Virus record (IMG/VR): IMGVR_UViG_2576861193_000004 | Span: 32,001-96,000 of that record | Direction: 5' to 3' (one strand) | Length of the DNA: 64,000 bases | Origin: a virus | Lineage: Duplodnaviria > Heunggongvirae > Uroviricota > Caudoviricetes | Shown here: positions 177 to 59,299 of the stretch, one piece after another | Layout: every line of letters starts with the position of its first letter | Position numbering within the stretch: position 1 is the first letter of the stretch | Notes under the pieces: model-generated | Database searches by the model: none | Told to the model about the DNA's origin: nothing | The model's input: only the letters and a program-made list of their open reading frames with translations | Translations under genes and position numbers: made by a program

Positions 177-3100
177 TATGCAAGCCTCACAATATAGTTA
201 AATGCGATGTTTTTGACGGTGTTTTCCGCGTTACCAGCAGCGTTAACGGTGATGGTGTGTCCATGTGAGCCAATCGCAACCGAGTGCGTATGCGCACCAA
301 TACCTACAGTATGTGCATGTGCGCCAGAACTTGCTGCAGTACCAGACAGCGAGTGGGTATGAGCACCTGCTGACTGTGTCTGAATACGTTGATAATACGA
401 TCTACTGGAAGAAGTCCCCGGGCTTACTTGATACTGTGAATCCTGGACATAAGTGAACCCACCGCCATCATAAAATGCTAACGCAGAACCGCCGCCTCCT
501 GGCCAACGAATACCATTACCATGAGTATGAGCACCGGCAGCCCCCGTAGAGCCACTCAGACTGTGCGTATGCGCCCCGGTGTTATTCGTGGATTTAGTGC
601 CGTAATCAAACGACGATGTGGTTTTCGTCCCCAAATCCGTACTGGATGCGCTGGCGCTGTGGGTGTGCGATTTAATGCCGTCCTGTTCCTGAGACAATAC
701 GGCGCGACCACTGGCAGGTTTGCCCTTAATCGTCCAGCCACGCATATCAGGGATCACGCCTGACGGATAAGCGGCTGCAAGTTTCGGGTAAGCAGATTTG
801 TCAAAAGTCTGCCCCTGCATCAGGGCATAGCCAGACGGAACGGTATCTGATGGCCACGGGATTGGTGCACCGACTGGATAAAACTCTGCAGGAGGATGAG
901 CCGAGGTGTAAAGCTGCGCCCACGGCGACCAGTTTGCGTCGGTCGTATCCCGTCGTGAACGAATAAATGCCGGAGCATGAGCACCGCTTGTACCACTCCA
1001 GCCAATTAGCAACTCTCCCTCACCAGCAACTCTCGCACCTTTCATGTGCAATACGTTGCCATACGTGGTCGGGTAGCTATTGTTGTACGCCTCGTACATT
1101 TGAATGCCAGCAGTGCCTTGAGTAGAGCCGCTTAACGCCGTAACTTGGCCACGAGATACCAATGTATTAATGTTGATATCGCCTGAGCCATCAAACTTAA
1201 CACCATTGATGTTTCTCGCTGTTTGCAACTTCGTAGCTGTTGAAGCATTACCGTTCAAACTACCATTTACGCCACCAGTCACATTTAGTCCATTACCGAT
1301 CGTAACAGCACCATTGGCATTGTTAATGATAAGCGGCCTTAAACTATTCCATGATCCAAGATTGTCACCCGAGGCGGTCAACATGAAGTATGTGTTTGAA
1401 CCATCGTTTCGGATAAAGAATCCGTAGTTTCCGCAGACAATGCGCAGACCATTCGCCGATTTTGAAATGATCTCACCAGAAGATGTCAAACCTCCAGATA
1501 ATGTACCACCGGTAAGAGGTAATGCACCGACATCAGAGGCTGTTGGTTTGTTTTTCGTGTTATATACTCTTCGCCATCCTGGAGAATAATCTGTGCCATT
1601 AAATACATAGATAAACTCCGCATTAGTGAGAGCACCAGAGACACTCGTCGTTGTGGCCGTTGTTATACGGATCGTATAATTGTTTGAGCTACTACCGTTA
1701 TTAAATACCTCTATAACAGCTCCTGCCAATGGAATAACGCCACAACCAGTTTCACTATTTGGTATGGTTGCACTATTGGCATAGGCCCACGCACATCGAG
1801 CAATCCATGACCTTGTGGTAAACGCGCCGTTATTTTGCAATAACGTCACTAACTGTGCTGTTGTTATTGCTCCGCCATTACTTCCTGTAGTTAACCAACC
1901 AGTAGGAGATGCCGGGCAACCTATATCGGCAGGCCCCAACGATATATTTCTTGTGCCATCAAACGCAATACCGTTGATGGTTCTTGCGGTTTGCAACTTC
2001 GTAGCAGTAGCCGCGTTGCCCGTTGTATTCTGATTACCAGTCGTATTAACACCTGGCAAATTAATATTCGCAGTACCATCAAAGCTCACGCCGCCGATAG
2101 TTCTTGCCGTCTGAAGTTTTGTAGCAGTTGCAGCATTACCAGTGGTGTTCTGATTACCCGTAGTATTTACACCTGGAAGGTTGATATTTGCAGAACCGTC
2201 GAAACCAACTCCACCGATAGATCTTGCCGTCTGCAATTTCGTTGCTGTACTTGCATTACCATTTAATGTTCCGGTGATCCCACCAGTAACAGACAACGGA
2301 CCTGAAACTGTTCCTCCGGTTGTTGGCAGTGCACCAATATCTAACGGCGTCGGTTTCTTATGTGTGCTATACATCGTATAAACAACACCATCGGTAACGC
2401 TGGAAGGCTTACTCGCTGAATATGTTGGCGATGTATAAATAGAAACTGTCGCATTTGCAGTACAATCCCAATGGATATTTACACTAGTCGCATAATTGCC
2501 AATCTCAACGTAAATATCATATGTATCGCCGGATGTGTTGATCCAGGCGAAATTCGTTAATCCGACGGCTGTACGCTTCCACAAAGCCCCGGTAATTCCT
2601 TTGGGCATTCCATTGCCTGCTCGTAGAACCAGTTCTGAAATGCCTGCCTGTTGAGGTGACCCCACGTTAAATCCCGCGCCACCAATCAATGCGATGTAAA
2701 CGATGGAACTATTTTGTGGCATGGTAACCGTAGCCAGTTTGAACCACCCAGCCCCGCCAGAGAAAGACATCGTTATTGAATTTAAAGTACCAATATCTTT
2801 CGGCGTTAATGTGATATCCGCAGTCAGTGCTTTCCCGTTAATTTTTCGGTTAGATGGCACCCTGCTGTTCGCATTGTCATTGACTACTTTAACTGCTTTT
2901 GGCGTTGCGGCCAGCGATTCACTGGTGCTGTCGACAGCACTGCTAAGTTTCACAACACCTTTAGTTGTAAGGCTTGCGTCTTCCATCGCAACTGCACCGG
3001 CAATCTCTTCAGCACGATCAGCAGCAGCTTCCGCACGGGTCGCAGCGGATTCAGCAGCAGTTTTGCTCTGAGATGCTGCCGTCGCACTGCCAGCTGCCTC

Positions 3101-4348: not shown

Positions 4349-4440
4349 GTTGAATATGCTCCTTGATTTGGCGGGCTATCCTTGCCCGCCATTAAGTATA
4401 TACTTACCTATTTTTACCGATATAAAATTTTTTTCCACCA

Positions 4441-11288: not shown

Positions 11289-11337
11289 CCTGTCAGCGCC
11301 ACAATGATAGTAAATTAGTACTTACTTATCCAGATGC

Positions 11338-17794: not shown

Positions 17795-17832
17795 TCATTG
17801 CGCTAATAGTAAGTATATACTTACCAATTGAG

Positions 17833-23221: not shown

Positions 23222-24796
23222 TCACTCGTTCTCTTGAGTAGATGAGTCCCCATTCCCTCGGGGTTGATCTTGCCCGCTTTCTTGGGCCGCACCACGATCA
23301 TAAGTAAGTACTGACTTATTTTCAAGGGTATTTAGATCATTTTTTGGAGGAAAATTCAAGAGATCTTTATCAAATTCCTTTTTCATCGCCTCAGTAATGT
23401 TCGGGAAAATCTTCTCAATAAGCATTTCCATCTGGTGACGACGTACAGAGTCCGGTGCCTGAAGTAATGACAGTTTCTCGGCAACAGAAAATTCATCAGT
23501 AAGGCCACGAATATCGAAACTTTCTGGATACGCAATTAAAGAGTGGTCTTCGTCCAGATCTACCCCCATCCATTTCGCAACCAGTAGCATGATTTGGCGT
23601 TCAGCCCTTTCCAGACGCTCTGCTTTTGTGACAAGCAAGCTATTTACACGCTGGAAGTCATACATTTTTGCGGCACCAGATGAATTATCGATTCCCTGTG
23701 CGTTGTCCTGCTTCGTTCGCTCACCAGCTACACCAACTGAATGGTAGATTTCGTTAATCACCGTCTTAATCGTAGTGATGATCATCTGAGCTTGTTTCGG
23801 GTCTGGTGACAGATAAAACGGCTGGTTTCCACCTTCAGAATCGTAGGTGAAGACTCGCTTTGTGCCCATTTCAAGCACTTTAGTGTGGTTTTCATCACCA
23901 GGTAAAAGCGACTGTACCGGTATAGCCAACTGGCTAAATGTCTGATCCTGAATAATGGCATCAAGGTTTGACAGATAGTTTGCAACCGCACGATCAAGAT
24001 AAGCAATATCATCGATCAACGATGGGCTGAAATACGGTGATTCACTTTCTCCAATACAATCAACAGGAAACACAGGAACTACGCCGAGATTATGCGCGCC
24101 GCTGTCCTCTAAAATAACTTTTGCCTGACGACGACCTGCTCCACCAGCCCCCTTCTTCACTTCCTCACGGAACAGATACCACTCGTTTTGTGTCCACAGA
24201 CGATAACGTTGGTATTCCTGACCTGTAGAAGTAAAAGGATCTGCGTCATCGCGAGCGACTTCCACAATTAACGCCCATAACATATTCCCGTCGTCGTCCC
24301 ATGCCACATCCAGCATTTGCTGAGGTGAAATCCAGTAGGCGTAGGCGCGAGCATCTTTCTTTTTCTCGTCAGCTACTGACTCAACATCACCACTCATCGT
24401 GCTATCGACAACAACCCATATGCGACCGTAAATAGACGACTGCAAATCAATAGCGGCCATAAATGAGTCAATAGAGGCATTCTGGCGAGTCGCACGTTTC
24501 CAGAAATTGCGGATCTGCTCTGGTGCCTCTTCGATATTTCTATGAATGTCTTCTTTAAAGAGATATTTGTTGATGAGGTTTACCACCTCACGAGTGTGGT
24601 TGAAGCGATAAGCACGCTCAACTCGCTCCTTAAACTCCTGATCTCCCTCTTTAAAGTAACGAAAGATATTGTCTGTAAACCAACCACGCCCGCCAGCGTA
24701 AGTGCTGGCGAGGAAGTCCCAATGTTCTTTTTTCTTTTCGTATTCCGGGTGGCGTCGCGCCACCAGATCCTTAATTTGTTTGTCGTTCAATTCCAT
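23222..24796 (-). CDS. portal protein (putative)
   Basis: 524 aa, immediately downstream of terminase large subunit gene. Confidence 0.6.
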   Translation of the reverse strand: MELNDKQIKDLVARRHPEYEKKKEHWDFLASTYAGGRGWFTDNIFRYFKEGDQEFKERVERAYRFNHTREVVNLINKYLFKEDIHRNIEEAPEQIRNFWKRATRQNASIDSFMAAIDLQSSIYGRIWVVVDSTMSGDVESVADEKKKDARAYAYWISPQQMLDVAWDDDGNMLWALIVEVARDDADPFTSTGQEYQRYRLWTQNEWYLFREEVKKGAGGAGRRQAKVILEDSGAHNLGVVPVFPVDCIGESESPYFSPSLIDDIAYLDRAVANYLSNLDAIIQDQTFSQLAIPVQSLLPGDENHTKVLEMGTKRVFTYDSEGGNQPFYLSPDPKQAQMIITTIKTVINEIYHSVGVAGERTKQDNAQGIDNSSGAAKMYDFQRVNSLLVTKAERLERAERQIMLLVAKWMGVDLDEDHSLIAYPESFDIRGLTDEFSVAEKLSLLQAPDSVRRHQMEMLIEKIFPNITEAMKKEFDKDLLNFPPKNDLNTLENKSVLTYDRGAAQESGQDQPRGNGDSSTQENE

Positions 24797-24822
24797 TTGA
24801 ATAACCTTAGATAATTACTTAC

Positions 24823-26079
24823 CTATCTAGAACCACCAAGAATAACACGGTTTTTGACTGGATACCTACGATGTACTGGATAGCCCAATGCGTCTGCACT
24901 ATGCTCAATGCCACCTGTCTTATCCATATCTCGTGTTCCAGGCTTGTAGATGACTTTTTCCAATGAATCAATCAAATGCTTGCACTTCGGATCGATATAC
25001 AGCCGGATATCTCCAGATGCGGTCATCAGCATTCGGTTAACAGCATTAACACGATCCGCAATTGGCGGGTGCTTTTTCGAATAATCGACACGTAAGAATC
25101 CCTTCTCTTTGAATATGTCGACGTCAGACTCCCCGCGAGCATGTTGGCGATAAGCACCTGCCGGATCTGGAAATACCGTTATCTGTGATTTCCAGCGCCA
25201 GAAGCGTCTCTCAAGCTCATCACAAACCTCTGCCGTGTTAGAGGAAAAGAGCACCAATTCATCAATTGCCCATAGCTCACCATTTGGCTGAGGTTGCAAA
25301 ATTACTGAAGACATCGGGTCAATGTTGAAGTCCTGCCCTACCCATATAGGCAACCGAGGGTTGAACTGAAGCGGTTTTACATGCACGTTACGATCGAACG
25401 GGTAGTAAACGCGCCCGGACATGTTCTCAAAGCTCGCCAGGTACTCCTGAGCGAACGATTTCGGGTCCATATCGTTCTTAGCAGCTTCAATTTCCGCCGT
25501 AGGCACAAACGGAGAATCGGCAGTTACAAACTGCCAGCTCTTCCACTGTCCCTTTCTTTGCAGCTCTACGTTCTGGCCTATAGTCCACAGTTTGTGAAAT
25601 TCCGAGAAGCCTTTTGGCGTACCAATGATCAGTGCACCGCCGCGTGTCGATGAAAGAGTAGGTCGTAACACCTTGTACCAGGTGTCAGCCTTCATATCCT
25701 GAAATTCATCAAGCACTACAAAATGCAACGCTACGCCGCGCAGAGTGTCAGGCTTATCAGCACCTTTGAGGGCGATCTCCGAACCGTTCTTCAACACGAT
25801 TGTCATCGTGGTGTCGTTCTTTTTCCTAACCCACTTACGAGGCAGAACTTCCTGTAGATCGTCCCACAAAATCTGGCGAGCCATCTGGTAAGTAGGAGCG
25901 ACATACCAGACCCTTTGCTTTTTTTCCTTTGCCGCCGCACGAATAATAGTGGAGATCGACAACCGGGATTTTCCCCAGCGTCGACCAGCACAAACAACTT
26001 TAAATCGATGCGGAGACTGGAAGACTTTCATCTGTCCAGAATGCAGTTGCACAAGACTGAGCGAGGACGGGATTGCCAT
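24823..26079 (-). CDS. terminase large subunit
   Basis: Walker A (CAGRRWGKS) and Walker B-like (VVLDEFQDM) motifs, nuclease-type C-terminus. Start overlaps terS stop. Confidence 0.8.
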   Translation of the reverse strand: MAIPSSLSLVQLHSGQMKVFQSPHRFKVVCAGRRWGKSRLSISTIIRAAAKEKKQRVWYVAPTYQMARQILWDDLQEVLPRKWVRKKNDTTMTIVLKNGSEIALKGADKPDTLRGVALHFVVLDEFQDMKADTWYKVLRPTLSSTRGGALIIGTPKGFSEFHKLWTIGQNVELQRKGQWKSWQFVTADSPFVPTAEIEAAKNDMDPKSFAQEYLASFENMSGRVYYPFDRNVHVKPLQFNPRLPIWVGQDFNIDPMSSVILQPQPNGELWAIDELVLFSSNTAEVCDELERRFWRWKSQITVFPDPAGAYRQHARGESDVDIFKEKGFLRVDYSKKHPPIADRVNAVNRMLMTASGDIRLYIDPKCKHLIDSLEKVIYKPGTRDMDKTGGIEHSADALGYPVHRRYPVKNRVILGGSR

Positions 26080-26711
26080 TATTCGTCCTCCCCTTCACTT
26101 CCATCATCTGTCGCATCAAATTCGCTTAGAGCTTCTTCTTCCAACGTCTCAAGCAATTCGTCATCGATGATTTCAGGCTCGTCGTCTTCCTGACGTAATT
26201 TCGCCACCTGGGAAGGCGTAAGCTCACCAAATACCAGGTTCGGAATTTCTTCCTCGTCATTTTCCGCATGATCCATGCCCAATGCTTTGGACGAAACTTC
26301 AAAGCATTTTGCAAGGGTATTACTGGCTCTCTGTAAGCTCTTGAGAGAATCCTCAATCGCCCCTAAAGGCCTACCCTCACGTTTGGCCGTAGTGACTTCG
26401 ACCATCACCATCTGCCCCAACGCATACGCCCAGCCGTCATAACGTGTACGACGTTCTTCTATCTTTTCCGCACGGGCTTTAGCGCGAAGCTCTGCGTCAG
26501 ATTTAAGAGACTCACGAACCATCTTCCCAACAGAGTCCGCGCCTTTCTCTAATCCTCGCTTTTTGAAATGTCTGGAGAGTGTTTCACGACGAATGCCGTA
26601 CTCTTCCTCCAGCTTTGAGAGTGTATATTCGCCTGACGTCCATTTGGCTTCAGCTTCGGCCCACTCCGCTGGTGTCAGGCGAGTTTTTACCTCGTCTTTT
26701 TCGACCGTCAT
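26079..26711 (-). CDS. terminase small subunit (putative)
   Basis: 210 aa with N-terminal HTH-like region and very acidic C-terminus, translationally coupled to terL. Confidence 0.6.
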   Translation of the reverse strand: MTVEKDEVKTRLTPAEWAEAEAKWTSGEYTLSKLEEEYGIRRETLSRHFKKRGLEKGADSVGKMVRESLKSDAELRAKARAEKIEERRTRYDGWAYALGQMVMVEVTTAKREGRPLGAIEDSLKSLQRASNTLAKCFEVSSKALGMDHAENDEEEIPNLVFGELTPSQVAKLRQEDDEPEIIDDELLETLEEEALSEFDATDDGSEGEDE

Positions 26712-26807
26712 AGATCCCTCTAAAACACACAGAGCGCGTCCATGCGCTCTAAAACAACTTGTTTACTGCATCTGCTAACCAACTTGTTTTCTGGGGTGTT
26801 TAATTAG

Positions 26808-26904
26808 GTCTGGGCATGTCTTATTAAGCCTGCTTCCGTATATATTTAATAAGTTACTTATTATTTATATATACAGAAGCAGGTCTTTAAATAAGCTCCC
26901 AGAC
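26808..26904. promoter_or_regulatory. compound inverted-repeat element upstream of terS (copy 1)
   Basis: Nested inverted repeats GTCTGGG...CCCAGAC and CTTCCGTATATAT...ATATATACAGAAG around TAATAAGTTACTTATTA. Near-identical copy at 58432-58535. Confidence 0.65.
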
Positions 26905-26907
26905 CGA

Positions 26908-27174
26908 TTACATCACCAGTAACTTCGCTTTGGCTCGACCTAAAGTGGTTAACCCAAGAGTTCGGCGGTGATAGCGATTGTCACTGCGTTGGCGCGTATG
27001 CCCTTTCTCCACCAGCCCCTTTTTTATCAGAGCGCGAATTGAGAACTGGATACTTTGCTTGGTTGTCTTGTACGGCAAAACTTCAAGCAATTCGTCCAGA
27101 TCAAGTAAATGACCTCGCTCATAACCGAGATTGAGCGTTTTGATGATGTCCTTTTGTTTATCGGTTAACGTCAT
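26908..27174 (-). CDS. small winged-helix DNA-binding protein (putative regulator)
   Basis: 88 aa, helix-turn-helix-like pattern, sits just upstream of the compound inverted-repeat element preceding terS. Confidence 0.4.
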   Translation of the reverse strand: MTLTDKQKDIIKTLNLGYERGHLLDLDELLEVLPYKTTKQSIQFSIRALIKKGLVEKGHTRQRSDNRYHRRTLGLTTLGRAKAKLLVM

Positions 27175-27183: not shown

Positions 27184-28074
27184 TTATGCCGGTAAAGCAA
27201 TTTCTAACGGTTTATCCAAAGGTTGTTTGTCGAATGCCAGCAGTGGCAGCGTGTCAGGCAGTCGACGACCAAAGTCAGGGTTTCGGTACACACCATACAA
27301 CGGAGACGTAAAGCTCAGGTTGTGAATGTCCTTGAGCAGCTTCACAATGCTGGCCTCGTCCACCAGACTGTCGGCAATGTCCTGAATCGTCGTGCCACGA
27401 TTCCGCCCAGCTTTTGCCAGGGAACTGTTCTTGTGGTAGTCCGCCACCAGATCACGCAGTGCACGGCGACGACGAGACTCGCTCATTGCGAACAACTCTT
27501 TGACGATCGCCTCGTTATCACCAGGGTCGGAACGGAAATGGCGCTGGAATACACGCAGTGCACTTTCATAGCTCTTCGGTCGCTCAGGGCGGATGAACTT
27601 AAACCCTGCTTTCATGGCGAAGGGATTGTATTTGCTCATCGAGGACTGGATCTCAATGATTGGCCGGTCATGCATCCTGCTAACCAGGTTAATCATTCGA
27701 TAAGAGACGCCTACGCCACGATACTGAGTATCCACAACTGAGCGACTGATCACCGCAAAGTTGTTATTCACGTACCGACCCCAGTACTGGTTAGCCACGG
27801 TGGTATTAGTGGTTGGTTTCAACTTAGGAAACATGCGGTGGCGAGGTGCCAGCAGTAGTTTCGGGTAAGCCATAACCACGACGCCCACCAGACGGTCATC
27901 AAGTTCGCAGCGATAGTAAGTTGGCGCGAAAGGTTTGCCGTCTGTTTTGTAGTGAAGCGACTTAAGAGCGTGCCAGTCCTCTACAGTTCCCTTTGTGACA
28001 GTCATTCGCTCCAGAAAGTCCAGATGACGCGGAAACTCTTCAGGGCGGTAGCGTTTAATGATGATGTCCGTCAT
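27184..28074 (-). CDS. hypothetical protein, possible GNAT-fold acyltransferase
   Basis: RGVGVS motif resembling the acetyl-CoA binding motif (R/Q-x-x-G-x-G/A). Last gene of a tightly overlapping four-gene cluster. Confidence 0.35.
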   Translation of the reverse strand: MTDIIIKRYRPEEFPRHLDFLERMTVTKGTVEDWHALKSLHYKTDGKPFAPTYYRCELDDRLVGVVVMAYPKLLLAPRHRMFPKLKPTTNTTVANQYWGRYVNNNFAVISRSVVDTQYRGVGVSYRMINLVSRMHDRPIIEIQSSMSKYNPFAMKAGFKFIRPERPKSYESALRVFQRHFRSDPGDNEAIVKELFAMSESRRRRALRDLVADYHKNSSLAKAGRNRGTTIQDIADSLVDEASIVKLLKDIHNLSFTSPLYGVYRNPDFGRRLPDTLPLLAFDKQPLDKPLEIALPA

Positions 28075-28736
28075 AAATGAACCTCATCATGACTACCATT
28101 GTGATATTCCACCTTCACGCGTTCTTTGTAGTGCTTGGTGATCTGCATATCCGGGCGCAGCGCGTTCTTCAGGTCTTCGTGAGTCGTCGCCACCATTACC
28201 GTCGCACCAACCTTTCGAGCGGCACGCTGGAGGTTAGATGCCACAACCTGAGCGGTTACACGGTCTAGAACAGCACCGAACTCGTCAGCAGCCCACACTT
28301 TAGCGCCTGACTCAATCAGTTTGGCAATCTTGAGACGATATTTCTGACCGTCTGACATTTCAGAAGGCTTGCGAACAAACAGATATGCATCGTTCAGACC
28401 AGCCATAGATAACAACCCAAGCGCATCGCTGGTCGTTTTGCCCAACTGATCGATGACGTTAACCTCATTATCGAAGGTAAAATCATCGATGGAGGCTACA
28501 GACAGCCCTTCATCCTTCATCTGTCGTTGCAACTCGCGCAGCACAACGGATTTGCCGGAACCGGATTGGCCGGTGATGTACACCACATCGCCCTGCTTCA
28601 CTTCCAGCTCCAGATTGTCGTAAAGCGTCCACTCTTTTTCGTCCAGGCCAAGCCCGAACGACTCAGCGATTTCCAACGTGCGCGTGGTTTTATTTACGCG
28701 TGTCTGAAACGATACGTTGATGATGTATTTGCTCAT
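28071..28736 (-). CDS. ABC-type ATPase (P-loop NTPase)
   Basis: Walker A GQSGSGKS, ABC-signature-like MSDGQKYR, Walker B VWAADEF. Overlaps both neighbours by 4 nt. Confidence 0.6.
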   Translation of the reverse strand: MSKYIINVSFQTRVNKTTRTLEIAESFGLGLDEKEWTLYDNLELEVKQGDVVYITGQSGSGKSVVLRELQRQMKDEGLSVASIDDFTFDNEVNVIDQLGKTTSDALGLLSMAGLNDAYLFVRKPSEMSDGQKYRLKIAKLIESGAKVWAADEFGAVLDRVTAQVVASNLQRAARKVGATVMVATTHEDLKNALRPDMQITKHYKERVKVEYHNGSHDEVHL

Positions 28737-29434
28737 GCAGCCATCTCCCCGGAAGAGATCTTCTCCGCATATGCCACAAATGCGTCTACACCGCTTTCTC
28801 CCGTCATTTCTTCCATATGGGCAAGCAAATCACCAACAACAATGGCAGAGCCAGCAGGGAGCGTTTTAAAGCCCAATACGTCGACAACACGTACTTCTTC
28901 CGCTGCAACTTCATGACTGATCTCGGTGTGTTCATCCTTCTGTCGTTTAGTTTCTTCGCCAAGATCGATAACTAGCGAGTCGGTGTCCATTTCTTCTGTC
29001 ATGCTGCCAACGAGAACATTCAACTCACGCTCTTCAAAGCCGAAAACCTCGATATCGTCCAGAACAAGCGACTCAAGCTCTTTCTGTAGCTTAATTGCAT
29101 CGTAATCAATGCTGGCAAGTCGGTTATCTTCAAGACGCTTCGCACGAACCTCGTCATCACTGAGATCATCGCGAACAATAACCGGTACGCGCTCAAGTCC
29201 AGCAAAAATTGCAGCCTCACGGCGGCCGTGGCCAGTAATAATTACGTCGTTCTTATCGACCGTAATTGGCTGGTCAAATCCGCGCTTTTTAATGGCTGCG
29301 GCCAGATCTCGGATCTGCTGTTCATCATGCTTTTTGGCATTCATCTCATAGGGAATAAGATCTGCCGGGTCGCGATATACGATTTCAAACTTTTTGGTCA
29401 TTACATACGCTCCTTGTAGTAGTCGACCAGCCAC
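28733..29434 (-). CDS. ParB/Srx-like nuclease-domain protein
   Basis: ParB N-terminal domain motif IITGHGRREAA, acidic C-terminal half. Confidence 0.6.
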   Translation of the reverse strand: MAGRLLQGAYVMTKKFEIVYRDPADLIPYEMNAKKHDEQQIRDLAAAIKKRGFDQPITVDKNDVIITGHGRREAAIFAGLERVPVIVRDDLSDDEVRAKRLEDNRLASIDYDAIKLQKELESLVLDDIEVFGFEERELNVLVGSMTEEMDTDSLVIDLGEETKRQKDEHTEISHEVAAEEVRVVDVLGFKTLPAGSAIVVGDLLAHMEEMTGESGVDAFVAYAEKISSGEMAA

Positions 29435-30099
29435 ACCAGAGCCTCACCAGCGTTTTCCATTTCATTGCCAGTATTAATTGCCTGGTCTTTGATGATGTTT
29501 TTTATGGTTTCTGCAACGCGATCTGACGCATCGAAAGTTACTTTGAAGCGCATGGTCTGATGTTCCGCACCGACACGTTCGGTTTTCTCTCGTTTGTCGG
29601 TATCGACAGGCTCATCACTACCACGAGACAACGCCTCCAGTGCTTCAAGGTCGATTGCCGCCTCTTTTGCTAAAACCATCGAGATTTCGTCGTCATACGG
29701 GGCGATTTCAGACAGTTGATAGTCAAGTTCTGACTGAATTTCTTCAATGAAGCGCTGCAATGCGATTTGGTCGTCTTCACCGTATCGCTCGTTGTCCACC
29801 AGTGACATCTGTTTAGCTACGACATCGCTAATTTTGCCCACAGAAAGCACCGGAACCGTTGAAATTCCTTGCTCAATAGCAGCACGCCAGCGATGTTCGC
29901 CGCCGAGGATTTCAAAAAATCCATCTTCAAGTTCACGAGCCAAAATTGGCTTAAAAAAGCCCAATTTTTCGATAGAACCTTTCAGTTTTTCAAAATTCTG
30001 CGCACCAACCGAATTGGTGTTCCAGGTATTCGGGCGAAGGTTGGCAACATCAACCTGCAAAATCGTGATTTTTACATCCATTTTATTGCTACAATCCAC
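29401..30099 (-). CDS. ParB/Srx-like nuclease-domain protein
   Basis: ParB box motif FEILGGEHRWRAA. Confidence 0.65.
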   Translation of the reverse strand: MDCSNKMDVKITILQVDVANLRPNTWNTNSVGAQNFEKLKGSIEKLGFFKPILARELEDGFFEILGGEHRWRAAIEQGISTVPVLSVGKISDVVAKQMSLVDNERYGEDDQIALQRFIEEIQSELDYQLSEIAPYDDEISMVLAKEAAIDLEALEALSRGSDEPVDTDKREKTERVGAEHQTMRFKVTFDASDRVAETIKNIIKDQAINTGNEMENAGEALVWLVDYYKERM

Positions 30100-30163
30100 T
30101 ATGTAATCACTTACTTATTATAATAGCCAAATAACATACAAAAGGCACTAAGGAAAGAGGTTT

Positions 30164-31723
30164 ATGACTGTTCGGATTGTATCTAACGCAGTAAATGCAC
30201 TTATTTCTGGCGCAGATGACAAGGTAAAGCAACTGGTGCAACAGATGTTGAGCTACGAAGTCGAGACTGGCGACTGGAAGGGCACAAGCACGATGTTCAA
30301 CTGGAGTAAAAACTCGTTCCCTGCTGGCTTTGCCAAGCCTGTAGCGGCGAACTTGAACAAGGCGGGCATCAAATGTGTTCATATCCGCAAAGACAAAGCC
30401 CCGGCGCTTGGAAAGCCAAATCCGGCGGTCAACCCATTCCCATACAATCCTGATTATGCATATCAGGATCAGACTGTGGAAACACTGGTTCGAGAGGGAA
30501 TGATGATTGCGCAGATCGCTACTGGTGGCGGGAAATCTAATGTTGCCTGCAAAGCAGCTGCACGTATCGGTCGAATGACATTATTTTTAACAACCCGCTC
30601 TGTTCTGATGTTTCAGATGGCCGAAAACTTCCAGAGATCCATCGACTACCGCGCCGAAAATGGCGAACCGTGGTTAAAAGACCAAAAGGTTGGAGTCATT
30701 GGCTCGGGTGAGTTCCAGGTATCACGACATATCAACGTCGCTACAGTTCAAACTCTGGCAAGTTTCCTTGAAGAACCACCACGCGATGCAACTCCAGATA
30801 AGAAGAGCTACCACCTCAAACGTCGGGACTTGGTGAAACGCTTCCTTTCAAGTGTGTCTCTTCTTATTCTGGAAGAGGCGCATGAGTCTTCAGGCTCTAA
30901 TTTCTATGACATCGCCAGATTATGTGCGAACGCAGACTATCGCCTGGCGCTTACGGCAACGCCGTTCATGAAGGATTCTACGGAAGCCAACATGCGTCTG
31001 ATGGCAGTGGCCGGGCGAATTGAAATAAAAGTCACGGAAAAGTATCTGATTGATAGAGGCATTCTGGCAAAGCCATACTTCCTTTATCATAAAGTTGCCT
31101 ACAAGCCGGACGAGGCCAGAATCAAGGCAGAACTTGCCAACAAACACCTCAATTTTAGAGTAGGTATGAGCACTGCCTACCAAAAGGCTTATCAGTTGGG
31201 GATCGTGTATAATTTGGGACGTAATGAGGCCATTGTTCGCGAAGCATTGCTCTATAAGCAACATTCTCTCAATTGTATGACTCTGGTTCGTCTTAAACGC
31301 CACGGGCAAATCCTGATGGAAATGATGAAAGAGTCCGGCCTTAGAGTTGACTTCATTTATGGGGAATCGAACCAGTCGACAAGGCAAGCAAAGCTGAACA
31401 GTTTAGCGTCTGGCGACATAGATGTTTTAATAGGCTCGACTATTCTGGATGTCGGTGTTGATGTGCCAAACGTTGGTGCGGTCATTCTTGCTGGTGGTGG
31501 GAAAGCAGAAGTTGAAATGAGACAACGTGTCGGTCGTGGCTTACGAGCCAAGAAGAATCAGGCAAACGTGTGTTTTGTCACTGATTTCATTGACATTAGC
31601 AACAAATACCTGTTGTCTCACTCTTATGAGCGAAAACACATCATCGACACCACACCTGGCTTTGCAGAAGGTGTATTGCCTGTTGATGGCGCATTCGATT
31701 TTGGAGTTCTGAAACGAGATTAG
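30164..31723 (+). CDS. SF2 DNA helicase (DEAH-type)
   Basis: Walker A ATGGGKS, motif II LEEAH, motif III TATP, motif VI-like QRVGRGLR. Confidence 0.8.
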   Translation: MTVRIVSNAVNALISGADDKVKQLVQQMLSYEVETGDWKGTSTMFNWSKNSFPAGFAKPVAANLNKAGIKCVHIRKDKAPALGKPNPAVNPFPYNPDYAYQDQTVETLVREGMMIAQIATGGGKSNVACKAAARIGRMTLFLTTRSVLMFQMAENFQRSIDYRAENGEPWLKDQKVGVIGSGEFQVSRHINVATVQTLASFLEEPPRDATPDKKSYHLKRRDLVKRFLSSVSLLILEEAHESSGSNFYDIARLCANADYRLALTATPFMKDSTEANMRLMAVAGRIEIKVTEKYLIDRGILAKPYFLYHKVAYKPDEARIKAELANKHLNFRVGMSTAYQKAYQLGIVYNLGRNEAIVREALLYKQHSLNCMTLVRLKRHGQILMEMMKESGLRVDFIYGESNQSTRQAKLNSLASGDIDVLIGSTILDVGVDVPNVGAVILAGGGKAEVEMRQRVGRGLRAKKNQANVCFVTDFIDISNKYLLSHSYERKHIIDTTPGFAEGVLPVDGAFDFGVLKRD

Positions 31724-36729: not shown

Positions 36730-37079
36730 GATTAATTCCTTATCGTAAATAACAAATTGTTTTCTTGTTGGTGTTAATTATCGTTGTACGAATAAGGCGT
36801 CAAAGTGGAAAGTTGCGGTAGCCGGACGGGAACAGGTGGGTTTGTCGGTTGCCTGGAGGTAAGAGGTTGGTGTTTTTAGCCTGCGGGAAACAGGATGGTC
36901 ATTTAAGGCCACCAATGCTGATGGCCTTAATAATTATCGCCCTATTACGCTAAGGATCTTTTCCTCAACTGATTTGTTGTTGCGACTAAACTGCCTTGCG
37001 TATCTGATGACAGAAGAGGCGTTTTGCTTTCTGACCAATTCGACTCTTTCCTTCAGGGTTTTCTTGAAATCGCCCATAT

Positions 37080-37454: not shown

Positions 37455-37531
37455 GATGGTTTCCTTATTAAGTTGCTTCAGTGAAATCATTTTCACAAAT
37501 CAGATAAGGCAGAAAACAAATTGTTATCGGG

Positions 37532-37968: not shown

Positions 37969-38030
37969 TCACTCTCCGTAGTGTCTTGGTTATTTTTATA
38001 TTCTATGATCGTAAGTATGTACTTACAATA

Positions 38031-38405: not shown

Positions 38406-38558
38406 CACAACTCCGTAAACAACTTGTTTTCTCAATGGCGTAAATAATACCAGTAAGAAAACGGCTACAAAGCATATTGATCAGGTGCATGAGCGATATG
38501 CAGGTTCTTCCCTGCGGCTATAGAGAAATTAAGCCAGCAATGCTGGCTTTGGTTGGGG

Positions 38559-38888: not shown

Positions 38889-39244
38889 AAAGCAATCCTT
38901 AAACAACATGTTTTCTTGATGGTGTTATTATCGCAATAACGCACAGGCGAAAAAGGATTTTATTCCGGTGAATGTGGTTTTGGCAGTGAGTTTTCAGGTT
39001 CAGTACCGAGTACACTTTTTACATTATTCTGATTTAGTGGCCGAAGGTGGCTGGTGGGCAGAATAATCATCTCCCCGAAAACCTACTGAAATCGATTGTG
39101 ACCCGCTGACTGTCTGGCACAATTACGCTGTAGTTGGGCATTCAGAGGGAATCCAGCGGTAAGTAAGTTCGCCTGCACGTGAGCGCCTCTCTTCTTCCCG
39201 CACATTACAGGTGGGTAGCCGCAACTCTCCCTATCGCTATACCG

Positions 39245-41702: not shown

Positions 41703-41780
41703 CTCCGAAACAATTTGTTTTCTTATGTGGCTTATTATCTCAATCAACAAAAGGTAGAAAACAAATTGTTTTAGGGTTTG
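41703..41780 (-). promoter_or_regulatory. conserved promoter-palindrome cassette (two AACAAnTTGTT sites flanking GATAAT)
   Basis: GAAACAATTTGTTTTC (41707-41722) and GAAAACAAATTGTTTTA (41757-41773) around a minus-strand GATAAT hexamer. The same cassette is upstream of genes starting at 36729, 37454, 38405, 38888, 55263, 55986 and terS. Confidence 0.6.
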
Positions 41781-55263: not shown

Positions 55264-55560
55264 GTGTTTTCCTTAATTCTTAAACAAGTTGTTTTCTTAT
55301 TGGGTTTATTGTGATGTGGCATATAAGGGGAGCAAGCTAAACGTAAAGGTGCAAACTCTCTATTTTGGTCAACGAAACACAAGGGCCATTTGGCCCTTGC
55401 CATTAACACGTTGCTTTACGGACTAGCGGATAGGCGAAGTAGATCGCCAAACCAATGAGGACGCCATCAGAAATGACAGACATCATCTTTCCCGTAAAAT
55501 CCACCAACACCGCCATCACCAGAAGAGCAATGACGGTCACAAGCCGGAATCTCTCAAGCA

Positions 55561-55986: not shown

Positions 55987-56079
55987 GTGTTTTCCTTTTG
56001 TTATTTGTCAAAACAAGTTGTTTTATAGTTTCATAAATTGCTTACGCAAAGATGGTCAATGCATATGCACTAACAACCG

Positions 56080-56268: not shown

Positions 56269-56516
56269 ACAACCACCTTAGTCACAACATGATCCTGAGT
56301 AACTGGATGAACTTGAGGTATCGCATCCACCGTCATCCCATCCAGAGTGACAGGACGCTCTACTGTAGTGGTGGTAATTGTCGTCGACGGAGGTGTGGTG
56401 ATGGATGAATCCGGCATCAAAAGGCTCTGACCGGCTGGTACGGTAATCGCTGCCAGAGTTGCCAAAATCACTCCGTAGGCCATTGGCTTCAGTCGATTTC
56501 GTTGAAAATTTTCCAT
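56265..56516 (-). CDS. small protein with hydrophobic segment and Thr/Pro-rich linker
   Basis: ATG 56516 with SD AAGGA at 8 nt. Translationally coupled to the 2-TM gene. Lies inside a longer alternative-frame ORF (56278-56772). Confidence 0.35.
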   Translation of the reverse strand: MENFQRNRLKPMAYGVILATLAAITVPAGQSLLMPDSSITTPPSTTITTTTVERPVTLDGMTVDAIPQVHPVTQDHVVTKVVV

Positions 56517-56914
56517 GAGAACTGTCCTTGTGTGTCCGGGTTTCACGCAACACACGAGAAGCGACGCTATTACGCACCTTCTCCATGCCTACTGTCGTGC
56601 CCAGATTAGCTATGGCGGTAGCTTGCGCATTAATGCGCTTCTCCAGTTCAAACACTCGTTCTTCCAGTTCCGTAAGGCGTGCGGAAACACGACCACTAAA
56701 CAGCTCGGTCAGCACCAGGCGAATTGAACGGGGACGTTTATTGAAAGAAGTGAAAGACGTTTGACGGGCCATGTGGATTCCATTCAGTGTCAGAAAGAGT
56801 TGCGGCTGGCCAAGCCAGCCGCCTTTTGGCGTTCCATCCTGGAACCGTACCTAACCGGTACTTCGTCATCCTGACGATTTATAAGATACCTGATTTATTA
56901 TAGTGGGTAAATAC

Positions 56915-57523
56915 TTACTTATCTTTTTGTGACAAAAACCCAATGTCATGCTTGTGAGGCATATCAGCTGCGGAATAGGCGGCGATCTTCGCCAGACGGT
57001 CACACATTTCGTTCTCGCGATGACCTGCATGGCCTTTAACCCACTTCCAGCGGACATTATGACGACTGGCGGCCGCGTCGAGACGTTTCCAGAGATCCAC
57101 GTTTTTGACTGGCTTCTTCTCAGACGTGATCCATCCGTTACGCTTCCAGCCTTTCATCCAGAGCGTCATGCCGTTTTTAAGATACTGGCTGTCGGAATGC
57201 AGGATCACGTTGCAGGGGTACTTCAGACGCTCCAGCGCAATCAGGGCGCCCATCATCTCCATCCGATTGTTGGTCGTGCTGTGAAAGCCCTCAGAAAGCT
57301 CGCGCTCTTCGCCTCGATACTGGAGAACGATGCCGTAACCGCCCGGCCCGCCCGGATTTTTGAGGCAAGAGCCATCACTGAATACTTTTACGGTTTTGAG
57401 CTGGGGATTGAACTCGACTACGGGGGTTTTGAAGTTGGTACGGGATTGCTGGTGGGTTTGGTATCTGGCTTTGGACTTCGTGCGGCAGCCAGTATGTTGC
57501 CGGGCTGGGGTCTTGGTCGTCAT
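56915..57523 (-). CDS. ribonuclease H (RNase HI family) with N-terminal basic extension
   Basis: RNase HI core motifs ([53 protein letters not shown]). ATG 57523 with SD GGAG; track start 57580 is GTG. Confidence 0.85.
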
Positions 57524-58117: not shown

Positions 58118-58348
58118 TTATATTGATTGATTAATTTCTCGCCCATGAAGCTGGACGTTCAGGGCAAACACCTCATTGATGAGTTCCCCTAACAGCTGCT
58201 CCACCAGCTCTTTGTGCTCGCCTGAATGAAGACATTTGAGCGACCATTCGTAGAGACTGAAAGCCTTATCGCGATCTTTCATCATGTCGCGCACTGTGGC
58301 CAGAAAATCGCTCTCAACGAGCGCTACGACGTTCGTCGGGTATACCAT
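58118..58348 (-). CDS. hypothetical protein
   Basis: 76-aa ORF downstream of the compound inverted-repeat element. Confidence 0.4.
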   Translation of the reverse strand: MVYPTNVVALVESDFLATVRDMMKDRDKAFSLYEWSLKCLHSGEHKELVEQLLGELINEVFALNVQLHGREINQSI

Positions 58349-58431
58349 GATAGTTTTCCTTACTGTGGTTCATAAAATCGATTCTAGAGCGTCTGGAGAG
58401 GGGCTCCAGTAGGTTCTGAAGGTGTAAAACG

Positions 58432-58535
58432 GTCTGGGAGTTGTTTGGAAATCACGTCTTAAAAAGCCTGCGTCTGTATATATTAATAATTAGTACTTAG
58501 TTATTTATATATACGGAAGCAGGTTCTCAAACTAA
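58432..58535. promoter_or_regulatory. compound inverted-repeat element (copy 2), upstream of the 58118-58348 gene
   Basis: Same nested architecture and about 80 percent identity by eye to the 26808-26904 element. Confidence 0.65.
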
Positions 58536-58550
58536 CTCCCAGACTGGTGT

Positions 58551-59144
58551 TTACGCTGCCTTTTTACGTGGTCTCTTCTTCCTGACAACATTGGCAGGGT
58601 CATAACCAACCAGCTTTTTCATCACCGCCAGCGGTATTTTACTGATGGTGTGCCCAGCTTCCTGACAGTAGCCACGGAAGATAAGCAACATGCTGCCACC
58701 AGGGTTGATGTCTACTTCCACCAGCCCAAGTTCAACATCCGGCTCAACAAATGCCACGCGGCCACCTGACAAGATGACTGTTTCGTTTGCGCACTCAGCC
58801 GCACGCTCATACCACCGCGTATCGAGGGATTGTGGTATCAGCATGATCGTCGTCACTCCACGCGTCTGCTCGCGAATGGCCGCTTCTATCCAGGGGGTGA
58901 TTTTGGAGTAAGGCGGGTTAAGGAACGCCACAGTGCCAGGTTCTCCCCAACTGCACTTGAGCGCATCACGCTCAACACCGATAAAGTTCGGCAGGAGAGC
59001 ATTATCTTTGTTGCAGGCGACGTCCACATCGAACTTTACGCCTATGTAACGTTGGATGGCGACAAACAACCACTGCGGTGTGCGCCAAAGGTCGCGAAGA
59101 GAGGCATCACGCTCTCGCTTTTTGATTTTTTCGGCTGCGATCAT
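58551..59144 (-). CDS. DNA N6-adenine methyltransferase (phage Dam-type)
   Basis: Motifs DLWRTPQWLF and FLNPPYS typical of small phage N6A methyltransferases. Confidence 0.8.
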   Translation of the reverse strand: MIAAEKIKKRERDASLRDLWRTPQWLFVAIQRYIGVKFDVDVACNKDNALLPNFIGVERDALKCSWGEPGTVAFLNPPYSKITPWIEAAIREQTRGVTTIMLIPQSLDTRWYERAAECANETVILSGGRVAFVEPDVELGLVEVDINPGGSMLLIFRGYCQEAGHTISKIPLAVMKKLVGYDPANVVRKKRPRKKAA

Positions 59145-59299
59145 TACTTTACTCTGATAGGTAAATACTTACCTATTTTTTCATTTAATCCAACGGATAG
59201 CAAACAAAGAAGAACGCGCCAGATTCGCAAACGGGAAGCTCTCTGGCGCGTTTTATCGATGCTGGGTATGCAATGAGCTTACCCAGCGTCCTAAAGCTC

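What the first reader, a model, noticed from the sequence alone, without database searches (positions are those of the whole stretch)
26808..26904. About 100-bp compound inverted-repeat element present in two copies (26.8 kb and 58.4 kb)
Both copies have the same nested palindromic architecture (outer GTCTGGG/CCCAGAC, middle CTTCCGTATATAT/ATATATACAGAAG, core TAAGTTACTTA) and sit directly upstream of minus-strand transcription units (terS/late operon, and the 58118-58348 gene). The terS copy is additionally followed by two AACAAGTTGTT sites. This looks like a dedicated regulatory or recombinogenic element rather than a simple terminator.
Basis: seen in the sequence. Interest (0 to 1): 0.55.

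Follow-up and report, generated by a model that had tools for sequence, protein, structure and literature searches.

The report
Conserved operon-boundary palindrome of SSU5-type phage-plasmids
A nested palindrome of about 100 bp sits at three fixed gene junctions in SSU5-type phage-plasmids (two are in this window), and it most likely acts as a protein-recognised transcription boundary in front of lytic gene blocks; it is not a chance repeat, not an IS or REP fragment, and not a proven packaging site.

Summary
Copy A (26807-26905) and copy B (58431-58544) are homologous nested palindromes (nhmmer E 4e-12; DNA fold z about -9).

The window is an SSU5/pHCM2-type phage-plasmid. Whole genomes carry a third copy (C) outside the window. 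All 117 copies found in viral contigs fall into three syntenic junctions: p88->terS, dam->p76, and parA/parG->replisome genes.

The 16-bp arms (CCTGCTTCYGTATATA) never change, whereas the centre and the spacers drift. In four diverged lineages, every site examined in a genome carries the same lineage-specific arm. This implies a trans-acting reader.

The element is never chromosomal in 5,426 E. coli genomes and matches no Rfam family.

Published lysogen RNA-seq shows a 9- to 200-fold drop across copy C. Copies B and C have sense-strand U-tails. Copy A is followed by a separate canonical terminator.

Best reading (confidence about 0.4): operon-boundary terminator/insulator elements whose arms are the recognition site of a phage factor that gates entry into lytic modules.

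Rival readings are a lytic origin, a cos/pac site, a pure operator, and a centromere. The cos lead (the SSU5 GenBank record opens inside copy A) is weakened because draft plasmid assemblies also break there.

The recombinogenic reading is not supported.

The parts
26807..26905 (-). Copy A, the whole nested palindrome between the 88-aa winged-helix gene and terS
   Evidence: class A in 53 of 117 viral-contig loci
26829..26844 (.). Copy A inner arm (CCTGCTTCCGTATATA on the + strand)
   Evidence: invariant apart from positions 5 and 8 across all loci
26845..26867 (.). Copy A AT-rich centre with (TA)n flanks and TAAGTTACTTA. The SSU5 and Cyrano GenBank records open here, at about 26846/26847
   Evidence: the centre differs between copies A, B and C within one genome
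26868..26883 (.). Copy A inner arm (TATATACAGAAGCAGG on the + strand)
26807..26814 (.). Copy A outer arm GGTCTGGG
   Evidence: variant L020 keeps complementarity through changes on both sides (AACTG/CAGTT)
26898..26905 (.). Copy A outer arm CCCAGACC
58431..58544 (-). Copy B, the whole nested palindrome between dam and the 76-aa gene
   Evidence: class B in 41 of 117 loci
58467..58482 (.). Copy B inner arm (CCTGCGTCTGTATATA on the + strand)
58508..58523 (.). Copy B inner arm (TATATACGGAAGCAGG on the + strand)
26730..26751 (-). Canonical terminator-like hairpin (TAGAGCGCatggacGCGCTCTG followed by TGTGTTTT), between copy A and the terS ribosome-binding site
   Evidence: conserved, with a compensatory change in L020; an equivalent hairpin plus T8 precedes terS in Acinetobacter ZW85p2
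26753..26792 (-). Two AGAAAACAAGTTGTT-type sites between copy A and the terminator. They belong to a family dispersed through the window
   Evidence: the same motif sits in the parA promoter region
26908..27174 (-). 88-aa gene (p88) whose stop codon abuts copy A. MarR-like winged-helix fold; a candidate reader of the arms
   Evidence: phrog_900, function unknown
26079..26711 (-). terS (annotated 'DNA-binding protein'), first gene of the packaging/structural operon downstream of copy A
58551..59144 (-). dam methyltransferase gene whose stop codon abuts copy B
58118..58348 (-). 76-aa gene (phrog_5343) downstream of copy B

Best explanation
The element is one of three conserved copies of a palindrome specific to SSU5-type phage-plasmids. 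In these genomes almost all genes run in the same direction, and the copies mark operon junctions. Copy A lies in front of terS, copy B after dam, and copy C (outside the window) after the parA/parG partition operon and in front of the replisome genes.

Proposed mechanism:
- Each copy is transcribed from the upstream gene, whose stop codon it abuts.
- The 16- to 25-bp stem then stops read-through into the next lytic module. In copies B and C the stem has its own U-rich tail. In copy A a separate canonical terminator lies 70 nt further on.
- The invariant 16-bp arms are, in addition, the recognition site of a phage-encoded sequence-specific factor. This factor sets whether the boundary is closed (lysogeny) or open (lytic growth), by repression, roadblock or anti-termination.

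Shown: the anatomy, the synteny, the arm conservation and lineage-wide co-variation, and the transcript drop across copy C.

Inferred: that the hairpin itself causes the drop, that a protein reads the arms, which protein that is, and that the boundary is regulated.
For: (1) All 117 copies found by a pattern scan of viral contigs fall into three syntenic junctions. The inner palindrome ends 97-122 nt before the downstream start codon.

(2) Each copy starts within a few nt of the stop codon of a co-directional upstream gene.

(3) Published LF82 lysogen RNA-seq (PMC9928086, supplementary table): CYRAN_28-30 (parA operon) have 50-89 normalised reads, and CYRAN_31, 193 nt downstream, has 6 (background). 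The gap reaches 7.7 log2 units in other conditions. The palindrome plus UCUUUU is the only strong structure in that spacer.

(4) Sense-strand T-rich tails follow the stem in B (5.5 T of 9 nt against 3.2 on the antisense strand) and in C (5.0 against 4.0).

(5) In the diverged pCAV lineage, the arm of copy A is itself a canonical terminator (CAGAGCacgGCTCTG plus T8), and the C half-site is followed 26 nt later by a canonical terminator. In Morganella, the copy C arm pairs with a downstream inverted copy followed by TTCTTTC. In the window, copy A is followed by a canonical terminator. The arrangement 'box plus terminator' is therefore the conserved theme.

(6) The arms are invariant while the centre and spacers diverge, and the arm polymorphisms are not compensatory. 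The sites examined in one genome share a lineage-specific arm: GGAAGCAGG at A, B and C in the SSU5 type; CAGAGCAMGG at A, B and the second C site in pCAV (the first C half-site is the variant CTGGAGCCAGG); GGAGCCAGG at A, B and C1 in pVH; GGGAGCACGG at A and C, the only sites examined, in Morganella. This implies a trans-acting reader.

(7) At arm position 8, 47 of 52 distinct variants are pairable on the sense strand against 27 of 52 on the antisense strand.

(8) A MarR-like winged-helix protein is encoded immediately upstream of copy A.
Against: - Copy A, the copy in the finding, has no sense-strand U-tail (3.0 T of 9). The simple terminator scan flags none of the SSU5-type copies.
- In lysogens the genes on both sides of A and of B are near background, so the RNA-seq says nothing about those two copies.
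- The transcript drop at C could be due to another signal, or to mRNA decay.
- A stem that is conserved in sequence with a variable loop is the signature of double-stranded DNA recognition, not of RNA structure. The hairpin may therefore be incidental to a purely DNA-level site.
- The sense-strand bias rests on few independent events. The inner fold of copy B is actually better on the antisense strand.
- Gene conversion among copies could mimic co-variation with a reader.
- No reader protein has been identified.
Confidence: 0.4

Rival explanations
1. Lytic replication origins. Two inverted boxes for an initiator flank an easily melted (TA)n/AT-rich centre. The element is present in several copies, as in HSV oriS/oriL or SPP1 oriL/oriR. 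It would serve the phage's own T4-like replisome (DnaB-type helicase, primase, Pol III alpha, gp32/UvsX/UvsY/UvsW homologues).
For: - The geometry fits: 16-bp inverted arms and a 21-23 bp AT-rich centre, with total length tightly kept at 49-55 bp.
- The arm sequence is conserved and co-varies with lineage.
- Copy C lies directly upstream of CY31, the DnaB helicase and the primase.
- The centre is flipped in some genomes (L121, L041), so orientation of the centre is not essential.
Against: - No initiator has been identified, and the CY31 match is weak.
- GC skew is uniformly positive and shows no switch at any copy.
- In pCAV and pVH, copy B and the first C site are half-sites that keep a fixed orientation relative to transcription. 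This is odd for a symmetric origin.
- This reading does not explain why the copies abut upstream stop codons, the U-tails, or the transcript drop at C.
Confidence: 0.15
2. A purely DNA-level operator/promoter element. A dimeric phage repressor or activator binds the two arms, which sit between -35-like hexamers (TTGAGA, TTAACA or TTTAAA, 1-2 nt outside the arm) and a TATAAA in the centre. It would thereby control promoters that fire into the downstream operon. The hairpin potential would be a by-product.
For: - The arms are invariant, the centre is variable, and arm changes are not compensated.
- Arms are lineage-specific at the sites examined in each genome.
- The right arm has a fixed orientation in half-site lineages.
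- In pCAV, a sigma-70-like TTAAAA-17-TATTAT spans the left arm of the second C site.
- p88 is MarR-like.
- CYRAN_80 is slightly above CYRAN_79 in all conditions.
Against: - The consensus scan finds no sigma-70-like promoter in the SSU5-type copies. The -35 and -10 readings are my own, with poor spacing (15-16 nt) and no T at -7.
- The half-sites are 37-39 bp apart centre to centre, which is unusual for a simple dimer.
- This reading does not explain the U-tails or the adjacent terminators.
Confidence: 0.15
3. Packaging recognition site (cos or pac), at least for copy A. TerS would bind the two 16-bp arms across a bent AT-rich centre, as lambda gpNu1 binds R3 and R2 across the IHF site in cosB. 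Terminase would cut in the centre.
For: - Copy A lies directly upstream of terS in every lineage, including Xenorhabdus, Morganella and pMT1.
- The SSU5 GenBank record (and Cyrano, probably aligned to it) opens 9 nt from the dyad of copy A, with no gap or duplication.
- A Photobacterium contig ends in the equivalent AT centre.
- Copy A keeps both arms in lineages where copy B is only a half-site.
Against: - There are three near-identical copies per genome. A cos cutter would fragment the chromosome.
- TerL is of the Terminase_6N type. Its nearest solved relative is that of Thermus phage P74-26, and its distant relatives are Jersey-like and T5-like terminases. It is not of the lambda or HK97 cos classes.
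- More than 25 C-terminally truncated p88 proteins from draft bacterial assemblies show that contigs of plasmid-state DNA routinely break just before copy A.
- Only 3 of the 75 IMG/VR terS loci lie near a contig end, and none of those ends is in copy A.
- No paper found reports SSU5 virion ends.
Confidence: 0.1
4. Dispersed plasmid centromeres, as in the N15 prophage. A partition protein (the RHH protein CY29/ParG, or the ParB_N proteins upstream of copy A) would bind the arms.
For: - Of the 19 class-C loci, the 16 that extend far enough upstream all carry the parA-CY29 operon there, in the classical centromere position. In some lineages it is directly adjacent to copy C.
- Two ParB_N genes lie in the operon that ends at copy A.
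Against: - The parA promoter region carries the AGAAAACAAGTTGTT motif and not the arms.
- Centromeres of RHH-type systems are normally arrays of short repeats (established knowledge).
- The ParB_N operon is silent in lysogens.
- pMT1 uses a P1-type ParAB system and has lost copies B and C, yet keeps copy A intact.
Confidence: 0.05
5. A relic of a small mobile palindromic element (MITE-like: terminal inverted repeats GGTCTGGGAG/CTCCCAGACC around an AT-rich core) with no present function. The copies would be kept alike by gene conversion.
For: It has a MITE-like outline. Direct-repeat homogenisation is visible between copy B and the first C site in pCAV and pVH.
Against: - There are only three copies, always at the same three junctions, in lineages whose TerS is only 53-64% identical.
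- There are none on chromosomes.
- There are no target-site duplications.
- The arms are under far stronger constraint than the neighbouring intergenic DNA.
Confidence: 0.05

Closest known systems
Rho-independent terminators at operon ends, and the lambda cro-nutR-tR1 layout (a recognition box after a stop codon, followed by a terminator)
   Same: - The position, immediately after a stop codon and before the next operon.
- A stem plus a U-tail in copies B and C.
- A box followed by a separate terminator in copy A and in pCAV.
- Several copies per genome whose sequence changes together between phage lineages, as nut sites do with their N proteins.
   Different: - Here the stem is conserved in sequence and the loop is variable, which is the opposite of boxB.
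- The stem is very long (16-25 bp, or about 45 bp with the outer arms).
- Copy A has no U-tail.
- No N-like or Q-like protein has been identified.
Lambda cosB (16-bp R3 and R2 sites inverted around the IHF site I1, next to the small-terminase gene)
   Same: Two inverted 16-bp boxes around an AT-rich, bendable centre, directly upstream of terS. A genome record opens inside it.
   Different: There are three copies per genome. The terminase is not of the lambda class. No virion-end data exist. Assemblies of plasmid-state DNA break at the same place.
Palindromic origins with inverted initiator boxes around an AT spacer (HSV-1 oriS/oriL) and the duplicated SPP1 oriL/oriR
   Same: The geometry, the (TA)n centre, several copies per genome, and one copy next to the replisome genes.
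   Different: No initiator is known. Half-site versions with a fixed orientation occur in some lineages. There is a strong link to gene ends and terminators.
Dispersed centromere palindromes of the N15 plasmid prophage
   Same: A few palindromic sites scattered over a plasmid-prophage genome, some in lytic-gene regions. One copy lies next to the par operon.
   Different: The arms are absent from the parA operator. The architecture is far larger than a 16-bp parS. The element is retained in pMT1, which has a different partition system.
REP/BIME (RIP/RIB) elements of enterobacterial chromosomes
   Same: A compound palindrome of about 100 bp, intergenic, at the 3' ends of genes, with an AT-rich middle.
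   Different: There is no sequence similarity and no chromosomal copy in 5,426 E. coli genomes. There are three fixed sites rather than hundreds of variable ones.

Membership tests
Rho-independent (intrinsic) terminator | A stable stem-loop on the transcribed strand | tested here: met
   -25 to -30 kcal/mol as DNA, z about -9. In the copy C spacer folded as RNA, the palindrome is the dominant structure
Rho-independent (intrinsic) terminator | A U-rich tract immediately 3' of the stem on the sense strand | tested here: inconclusive
   B has 5.5 and C has 5.0 T of 9 nt (met); A has 3.0 (not met). The simple scan flags none of the SSU5-type copies, but it does flag the arm of copy A in pCAV
Rho-independent (intrinsic) terminator | Transcript abundance falls across the element | tested here: inconclusive
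   Published RNA-seq: a 9- to 200-fold drop across copy C. Both flanks of A and of B are near background. No 3'-end mapping is available
cos site of a cohesive-end phage | The ends of virion DNA map to the site | not testable with these tools
   Only indirect evidence. The SSU5 and Cyrano records open in copy A, but draft plasmid assemblies also break there
cos site of a cohesive-end phage | A single site per genome, next to the terminase genes | tested here: not met
   Three copies per genome. Only copy A is next to terS
cos site of a cohesive-end phage | A large terminase of a cos-type clade | tested here: inconclusive
   Terminase_6N. Nearest solved relative is P74-26. Relatives at about 25% identity are Jersey-like and T5-like
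IS element, MITE or REP/BIME | Many copies at variable positions, including on the host chromosome | tested here: not met
   404 places in 259 genomes, all on plasmids, 1-3 per genome.: three syntenic classes only
Known RNA family (Rfam 15) | A match at gathering score | tested here: not met
   no match anywhere in the window
Replication origin with inverted initiator boxes | An AT-rich unwinding element flanked by conserved inverted boxes | tested here: met
   (form only)
Replication origin with inverted initiator boxes | A cognate origin-binding initiator, and initiation at the site | not testable with these tools
   CY31 has no family annotation and only weak fold matches. GC skew is uninformative
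Plasmid centromere (parS/parH) | Lies next to the partition operon | tested here: met
   Copy C only
Plasmid centromere (parS/parH) | The same motif serves as the operator of the par promoter, or co-varies with the par module | tested here: not met
   the parA promoter region has AGAAAACAAGTTGTT and no arm. pMT1, which has P1-type ParAB, keeps copy A
nut/put-type antitermination site | Transcribed, lying after a stop codon and upstream of a terminator | tested here: met
   Copy A; pCAV first C site
nut/put-type antitermination site | A conserved loop or bulge with a co-varying stem | tested here: not met
   The stem is conserved in sequence and the loop is variable. Only 4 of 32 pairs show compensatory change

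The most novel reading that the evidence does not exclude
The three palindromes are multifunctional DNA sites of the lytic cycle. A phage protein would bind the invariant arms, and the (TA)n centre would melt or extrude as a cruciform. This would start origin-dependent or break-induced, T4-style recombination-dependent replication, using the phage's own gp46/47-like SbcCD, RuvC-like resolvase and UvsX/Y/W homologues. Copy A would double as the terminase entry or cut site. This would explain why a genome record opens in its centre and why the centre is found flipped in some genomes.
Probability: 0.12. Interest if true: 0.75.

Novelty: new variant of a known kind. Interest (0 to 1): 0.42.

Why it matters
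SSU5/pHCM2/pMT1/pKpn-type phage-plasmids are common in clinical Enterobacteriaceae: 955 PLSDB plasmids carry a TerS relative (E <= 1e-5), and 259 of 5,426 complete E. coli genomes carry the element. They carry resistance genes and are the backbone of the Yersinia pestis pMT1 plasmid. How they keep about 80 kb of co-directional lytic genes silent while expressing plasmid-maintenance genes is unknown.

A conserved, protein-readable boundary element at exactly the three entrances to the packaging, replisome and early-lytic modules would be a concrete handle on that switch. It is also easy to mutate. In practice it is a diagnostic signature of the family, and it explains why draft assemblies of these plasmids break at fixed points.

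If instead the sites are origins or packaging sites, they would define the cis requirements for lytic replication and for transduction by these elements.

Tried and rejected
- T4-type late promoter (TATAAATA in the upstream half of the centre): rejected. The octamer occurs only 5 times in the window, twice inside the elements.
- Shared identity of the core TAAGTnACTTA with the abundant TAAGTAnnTACTTA gene-start palindromes: rejected. The half-site spacing differs, and the centre varies between copies.
- Recombination hot spot: rejected for copy B. The mosaic junction lies at 56.4-56.5 kb.
- GC-skew test for an origin: uninformative. Skew follows gene orientation everywhere.
- Physical ends from contig ends: only 3 of 75 IMG/VR terS loci lie near a contig end, and none ends in copy A. 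Truncated p88 proteins show assembly breaks there in plasmid-state DNA.
- Literature: seven searches and several papers (PMC9928086, PMC9600943, PMC7969092, a 2026 bioRxiv preprint) gave nothing on this element or on SSU5 virion ends. The SSU5 genome announcement and the Gilcrease & Casjens 2018 paper are not held.
- Equivalent palindrome in the distant Acinetobacter ZW85p2 relative: none found.
- Annotation of the flanking proteins CY31, p76 and p88 with Pfam and PHROGs: no function.
- Xer/dif, lox, IHF-consensus and sigma-54/ECF promoter readings of the sequence: considered by eye. No consistent match across copies, so not pursued.

Full report
**1. What the window is**

Megablast places the region around both copies in the SSU5/pHCM2 group of phage-plasmids.
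- Around copy A the window is 99% identical to Escherichia phage CMS-2020a and 99.5% identical to Cyrano (pLF82) over the part that record covers.
- Around copy B it is 96% identical to Salmonella phage SSU5.
- Almost all genes in the window are on the minus strand.
- Copy A lies between an 88-aa gene (p88, 26908-27174) and terS (26079-26711).
- Copy B lies between a Dam methyltransferase gene (58551-59144) and a 76-aa gene (58118-58348).

Yes. The sequences are as described.
- Both copies have outer arms GGTCTGGG/CCCAGAC(C).
- Both have inner 16-bp arms CCTGC-N-TC-Y-GTATATA and their complement.
- Both have an AT-rich centre bordered by (TA)n.
- The four-way alignment of both copies in both orientations has 58 invariant columns.
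- nhmmer finds B with A at E 3.7e-12, and finds nothing else in the window.
- Each copy folds far better than shuffled sequence (z -8.6 to -9.5, 0 of 200 shuffles).
- The finding's 'two AACAAGTTGTT sites' exist: one is perfect and one has a single mismatch. They are members of a dispersed AGAAAACAAnTTGTT family (28 matches against 11.8 expected).

**3. How many copies, and where?**

The complete Cyrano genome has a third copy (C) at 31137-31245. It lies between the parA operon and the gene that precedes the DnaB-type helicase and the primase. In this window's genome, copy C would lie about 4.3 kb beyond the left end of the window.

An exact-pattern scan of IMG/VR returned 117 loci. Of these, 116 were assigned by flanking genes to three syntenic classes; one locus, L070, has no flanking gene to classify it:
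- A: p88 -> element -> terS
- B: dam -> element -> p76
- C: parA-CY29 (plus a variable cargo gene) -> element -> CY31

The inner palindrome is 49-55 bp long. It ends 97-122 nt before the downstream start codon.

In 5,426 complete E. coli genomes, the element occurs in 259 genomes at 404 places. All 404 are on plasmids, with 1-3 per genome. It is therefore not a REP, BIME, IS or MITE of the host. Rfam has no match.

**4. Conservation pattern**

Within the SSU5-type lineages (E. coli, Salmonella, Klebsiella and Yersinia pMT1), the arms are invariant except at two positions. Those two positions vary independently on each side and are not compensated: the combinations T/A, G/A, A/A and T/C occur at position 5.

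The centre differs between A, B and C of the same genome. The spacers between the inner and outer arms differ between lineages. RNAalifold on class A finds 32 pairs, of which only 4 show a compensatory change. One variant (L020) has changed both outer arms while keeping complementarity.

A stem conserved in sequence with a free loop is what a double-stranded DNA site read by a protein looks like. It is not what a structure-only RNA looks like.

**5. Distant relatives**

Each lineage examined has its own arm sequence at the same junctions:

| Lineage | TerS identity | Arm | Sites and form |
|---|---|---|---|
| K. oxytoca pCAV1099-111 | 64% | CCAGAGCAMGG (CTGGAGCCAGG at the first C half-site) | Found only at the three syntenic junctions |
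| K. pneumoniae pVH1-2-1 | 60% | TATAGGAGCCAGGC | At the same junctions |
| Morganella | 53% | TATGGGAGCACGGCTTAGA | At A and at C |
| X. hominickii | 54% | related to the Morganella arm | 23-bp arms around an 85-bp AT spacer at A |
| Photobacterium | 48% | TTGGAAGCAAGG | The contig ends in the AT centre |

So every site examined in a genome changes its arm together. This points to a trans-acting reader, or to gene conversion.

In pCAV and pVH, copy B and the first C site are half-sites: an AT-rich stretch plus the gene-proximal arm, always in the same orientation. Only copy A keeps a (weak) second arm.

The more distant Acinetobacter ZW85p2 has no such palindrome. pMT1 has lost the modules that hold B and C and keeps only copy A.

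**6. Link to transcription boundaries**

- Every copy abuts the stop codon of a co-directional upstream gene.
- In B and C, the inner stem is followed by a T-rich tail on the sense strand (5.5 and 5.0 T of 9 nt, against 3.2 and 4.0 on the other strand). Copy A is not (3.0 against 4.0).
- Copy A is instead followed, after the two AACAAGTTGTT-type sites, by a canonical terminator-like hairpin directly in front of the terS ribosome-binding site.
- In pCAV, the arm of copy A is itself a canonical terminator (6-bp stem plus T8). The C half-site is followed 26 nt later by a 13-bp terminator.
- In Morganella, the copy C arm pairs with a downstream inverted copy followed by TTCTTTC.

The published RNA-seq of the LF82 lysogen (PMC9928086, supplementary table) gives 50, 89 and 55 normalised reads for CYRAN_28-30. 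It gives 6, which is background, for CYRAN_31, 193 nt downstream. In other conditions the gap is up to 7.7 log2 units. In that spacer the palindrome plus UCUUUU is the only strong structure.

Genes on both sides of A and of B are near background in lysogens, so those two copies are untested.

**7. Best explanation**

I therefore read the element as an operon-boundary device in a genome of co-directional genes. It combines:
- a hairpin (or a box next to a hairpin) that stops read-through into the packaging/structural, replisome and early-lytic blocks
- invariant arms that are the address of a phage-encoded factor, which would open or lock the boundary

The anatomy, synteny, co-variation and the transcript drop at C are shown. 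That the hairpin causes the drop, that a protein reads the arms, and that the boundary is regulated are all inferred.

A candidate reader is p88. Its AlphaFold model (pLDDT 82) is a MarR-like winged helix (Foldseek TM 0.70-0.76 to MepR, MarR and ZitR). Other candidates are TerS, the CYRAN_45 repressor and the ParB_N proteins. None was tested.

Confidence is about 0.4.

**8. The cos/pac lead**

Evidence for: the SSU5 record ends ...AAGTGACTTATTA and starts AATATATACGG..., which is 9 nt from the dyad of copy A, with no gap or duplication relative to circular relatives. Cyrano opens one base away.

Evidence against:
- Three copies would be cut.
- TerL (Terminase_6N) is nearest to P74-26 and is distantly related to Jersey-like and T5-like terminases, not to the lambda or HK97 classes.
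- Only 3 of the 75 IMG/VR terS loci lie near a contig end, and none of those ends is in copy A.
- The p88 protein cluster holds more than 25 'partial' members from draft bacterial assemblies that lack the last 1-23 residues. Contigs of plasmid-state DNA therefore routinely stop just before copy A.

The record ends are as well explained by an assembly break. I keep cos/pac at about 0.1.

**9. Other rivals**

- A purely DNA-level operator/promoter is at about 0.15. I read -35-like hexamers just outside the arms, and the tool reports TTAAAA-17-TATTAT over the pCAV arm. The scan finds no promoter in the SSU5-type copies.
- A dispersed centromere is unlikely. The arms are absent from the parA promoter region, which instead carries the AGAAAACAAGTTGTT motif.
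- A recombinogenic role is not supported. The mosaic junction in this window is at 56.4-56.5 kb, not at copy B.

**10. Novelty**

No paper found describes the element. It is a family-specific, three-copy, protein-addressable boundary palindrome. That makes it a new variant of known kinds (terminators, operators, nut-like boxes) and not a new category.

It would matter as a handle on how these widespread resistance-carrying phage-plasmids separate plasmid life from lytic growth.

Noticed in passing
window 4393-4406, 11311-11328, 17810-17823, 23301-23318, 24808-24825, 30100-30117, 38012-38025, 56904-56921, 58104-58117, 59158-59175: A family of TAAGTAnnTACTTA palindromes (20 matches with up to 2 mismatches, against 1.7 expected). 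Most lie 10-25 nt upstream of minus-strand start codons, in structural and non-structural regions alike. They may be operators or promoter elements of an unknown regulator.
   Followed up: partly
window 36751-36765, 37511-37529, 38418-38432, 38902-38916, 41709-41723, 41756-41774, 55283-55297, 56012-56026, 26753-26792: A family of AGAAAACAAnTTGTT sites (28 matches against 11.8 expected), 15-25 nt upstream of many start codons. The same motif sits in the parA promoter region of Cyrano, pCAV and pVH. It looks like the operator set of a global regulator.
   Followed up: partly
window 26730-26751 (minus strand): A canonical terminator-like hairpin lies directly in front of the terS ribosome-binding site and is conserved, with a compensatory change. 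An equivalent hairpin plus T8 precedes terS in the distant Acinetobacter ZW85p2 plasmid. This suggests the late operon is entered by antitermination.
   Followed up: partly
window about 56400-56500: A mosaic junction. To the left the window is 90-98% identical to CMS-2020a. To the right it is 92-99% identical to SSU5 and only 65-80% identical to CMS-2020a.
   Followed up: yes
window 26908-27174 (minus strand): The 88-aa protein upstream of copy A is predicted to be a MarR-like winged-helix DNA-binding protein (pLDDT 82; Foldseek TM about 0.75). It had no family annotation.
   Followed up: yes
window 27184-30099 (minus strand): An operon of two ParB_N-domain proteins and two ABC-type ATPases lies directly upstream of p88 and terS. 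It is conserved even in the Acinetobacter relative and is silent in LF82 lysogens. Some TerS relatives in the database are fused to a ParB_N domain. This may indicate a packaging-related role and not a partition role.
   Followed up: no
[not shown]
   Followed up: partly
L139 42323-42988 (Acinetobacter ZW85p2): The distant Acinetobacter relative encodes a sigma-70-family sigma factor next to MoxR/CobT-like genes. Whether SSU5-type genomes hide an equivalent was not checked.
   Followed up: no
window 1176-2183: Three copies of a 120-nt repeat (65-72% identical), two of them in tandem, inside the tail-fibre region.
   Followed up: no
L121 and L041 (viral contigs): In two genomes the asymmetric AT-rich centre of the palindrome is inverted relative to the flanking genes, while the arms stay in place. 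The (TA)n runs also vary in length between genomes.
   Followed up: partly
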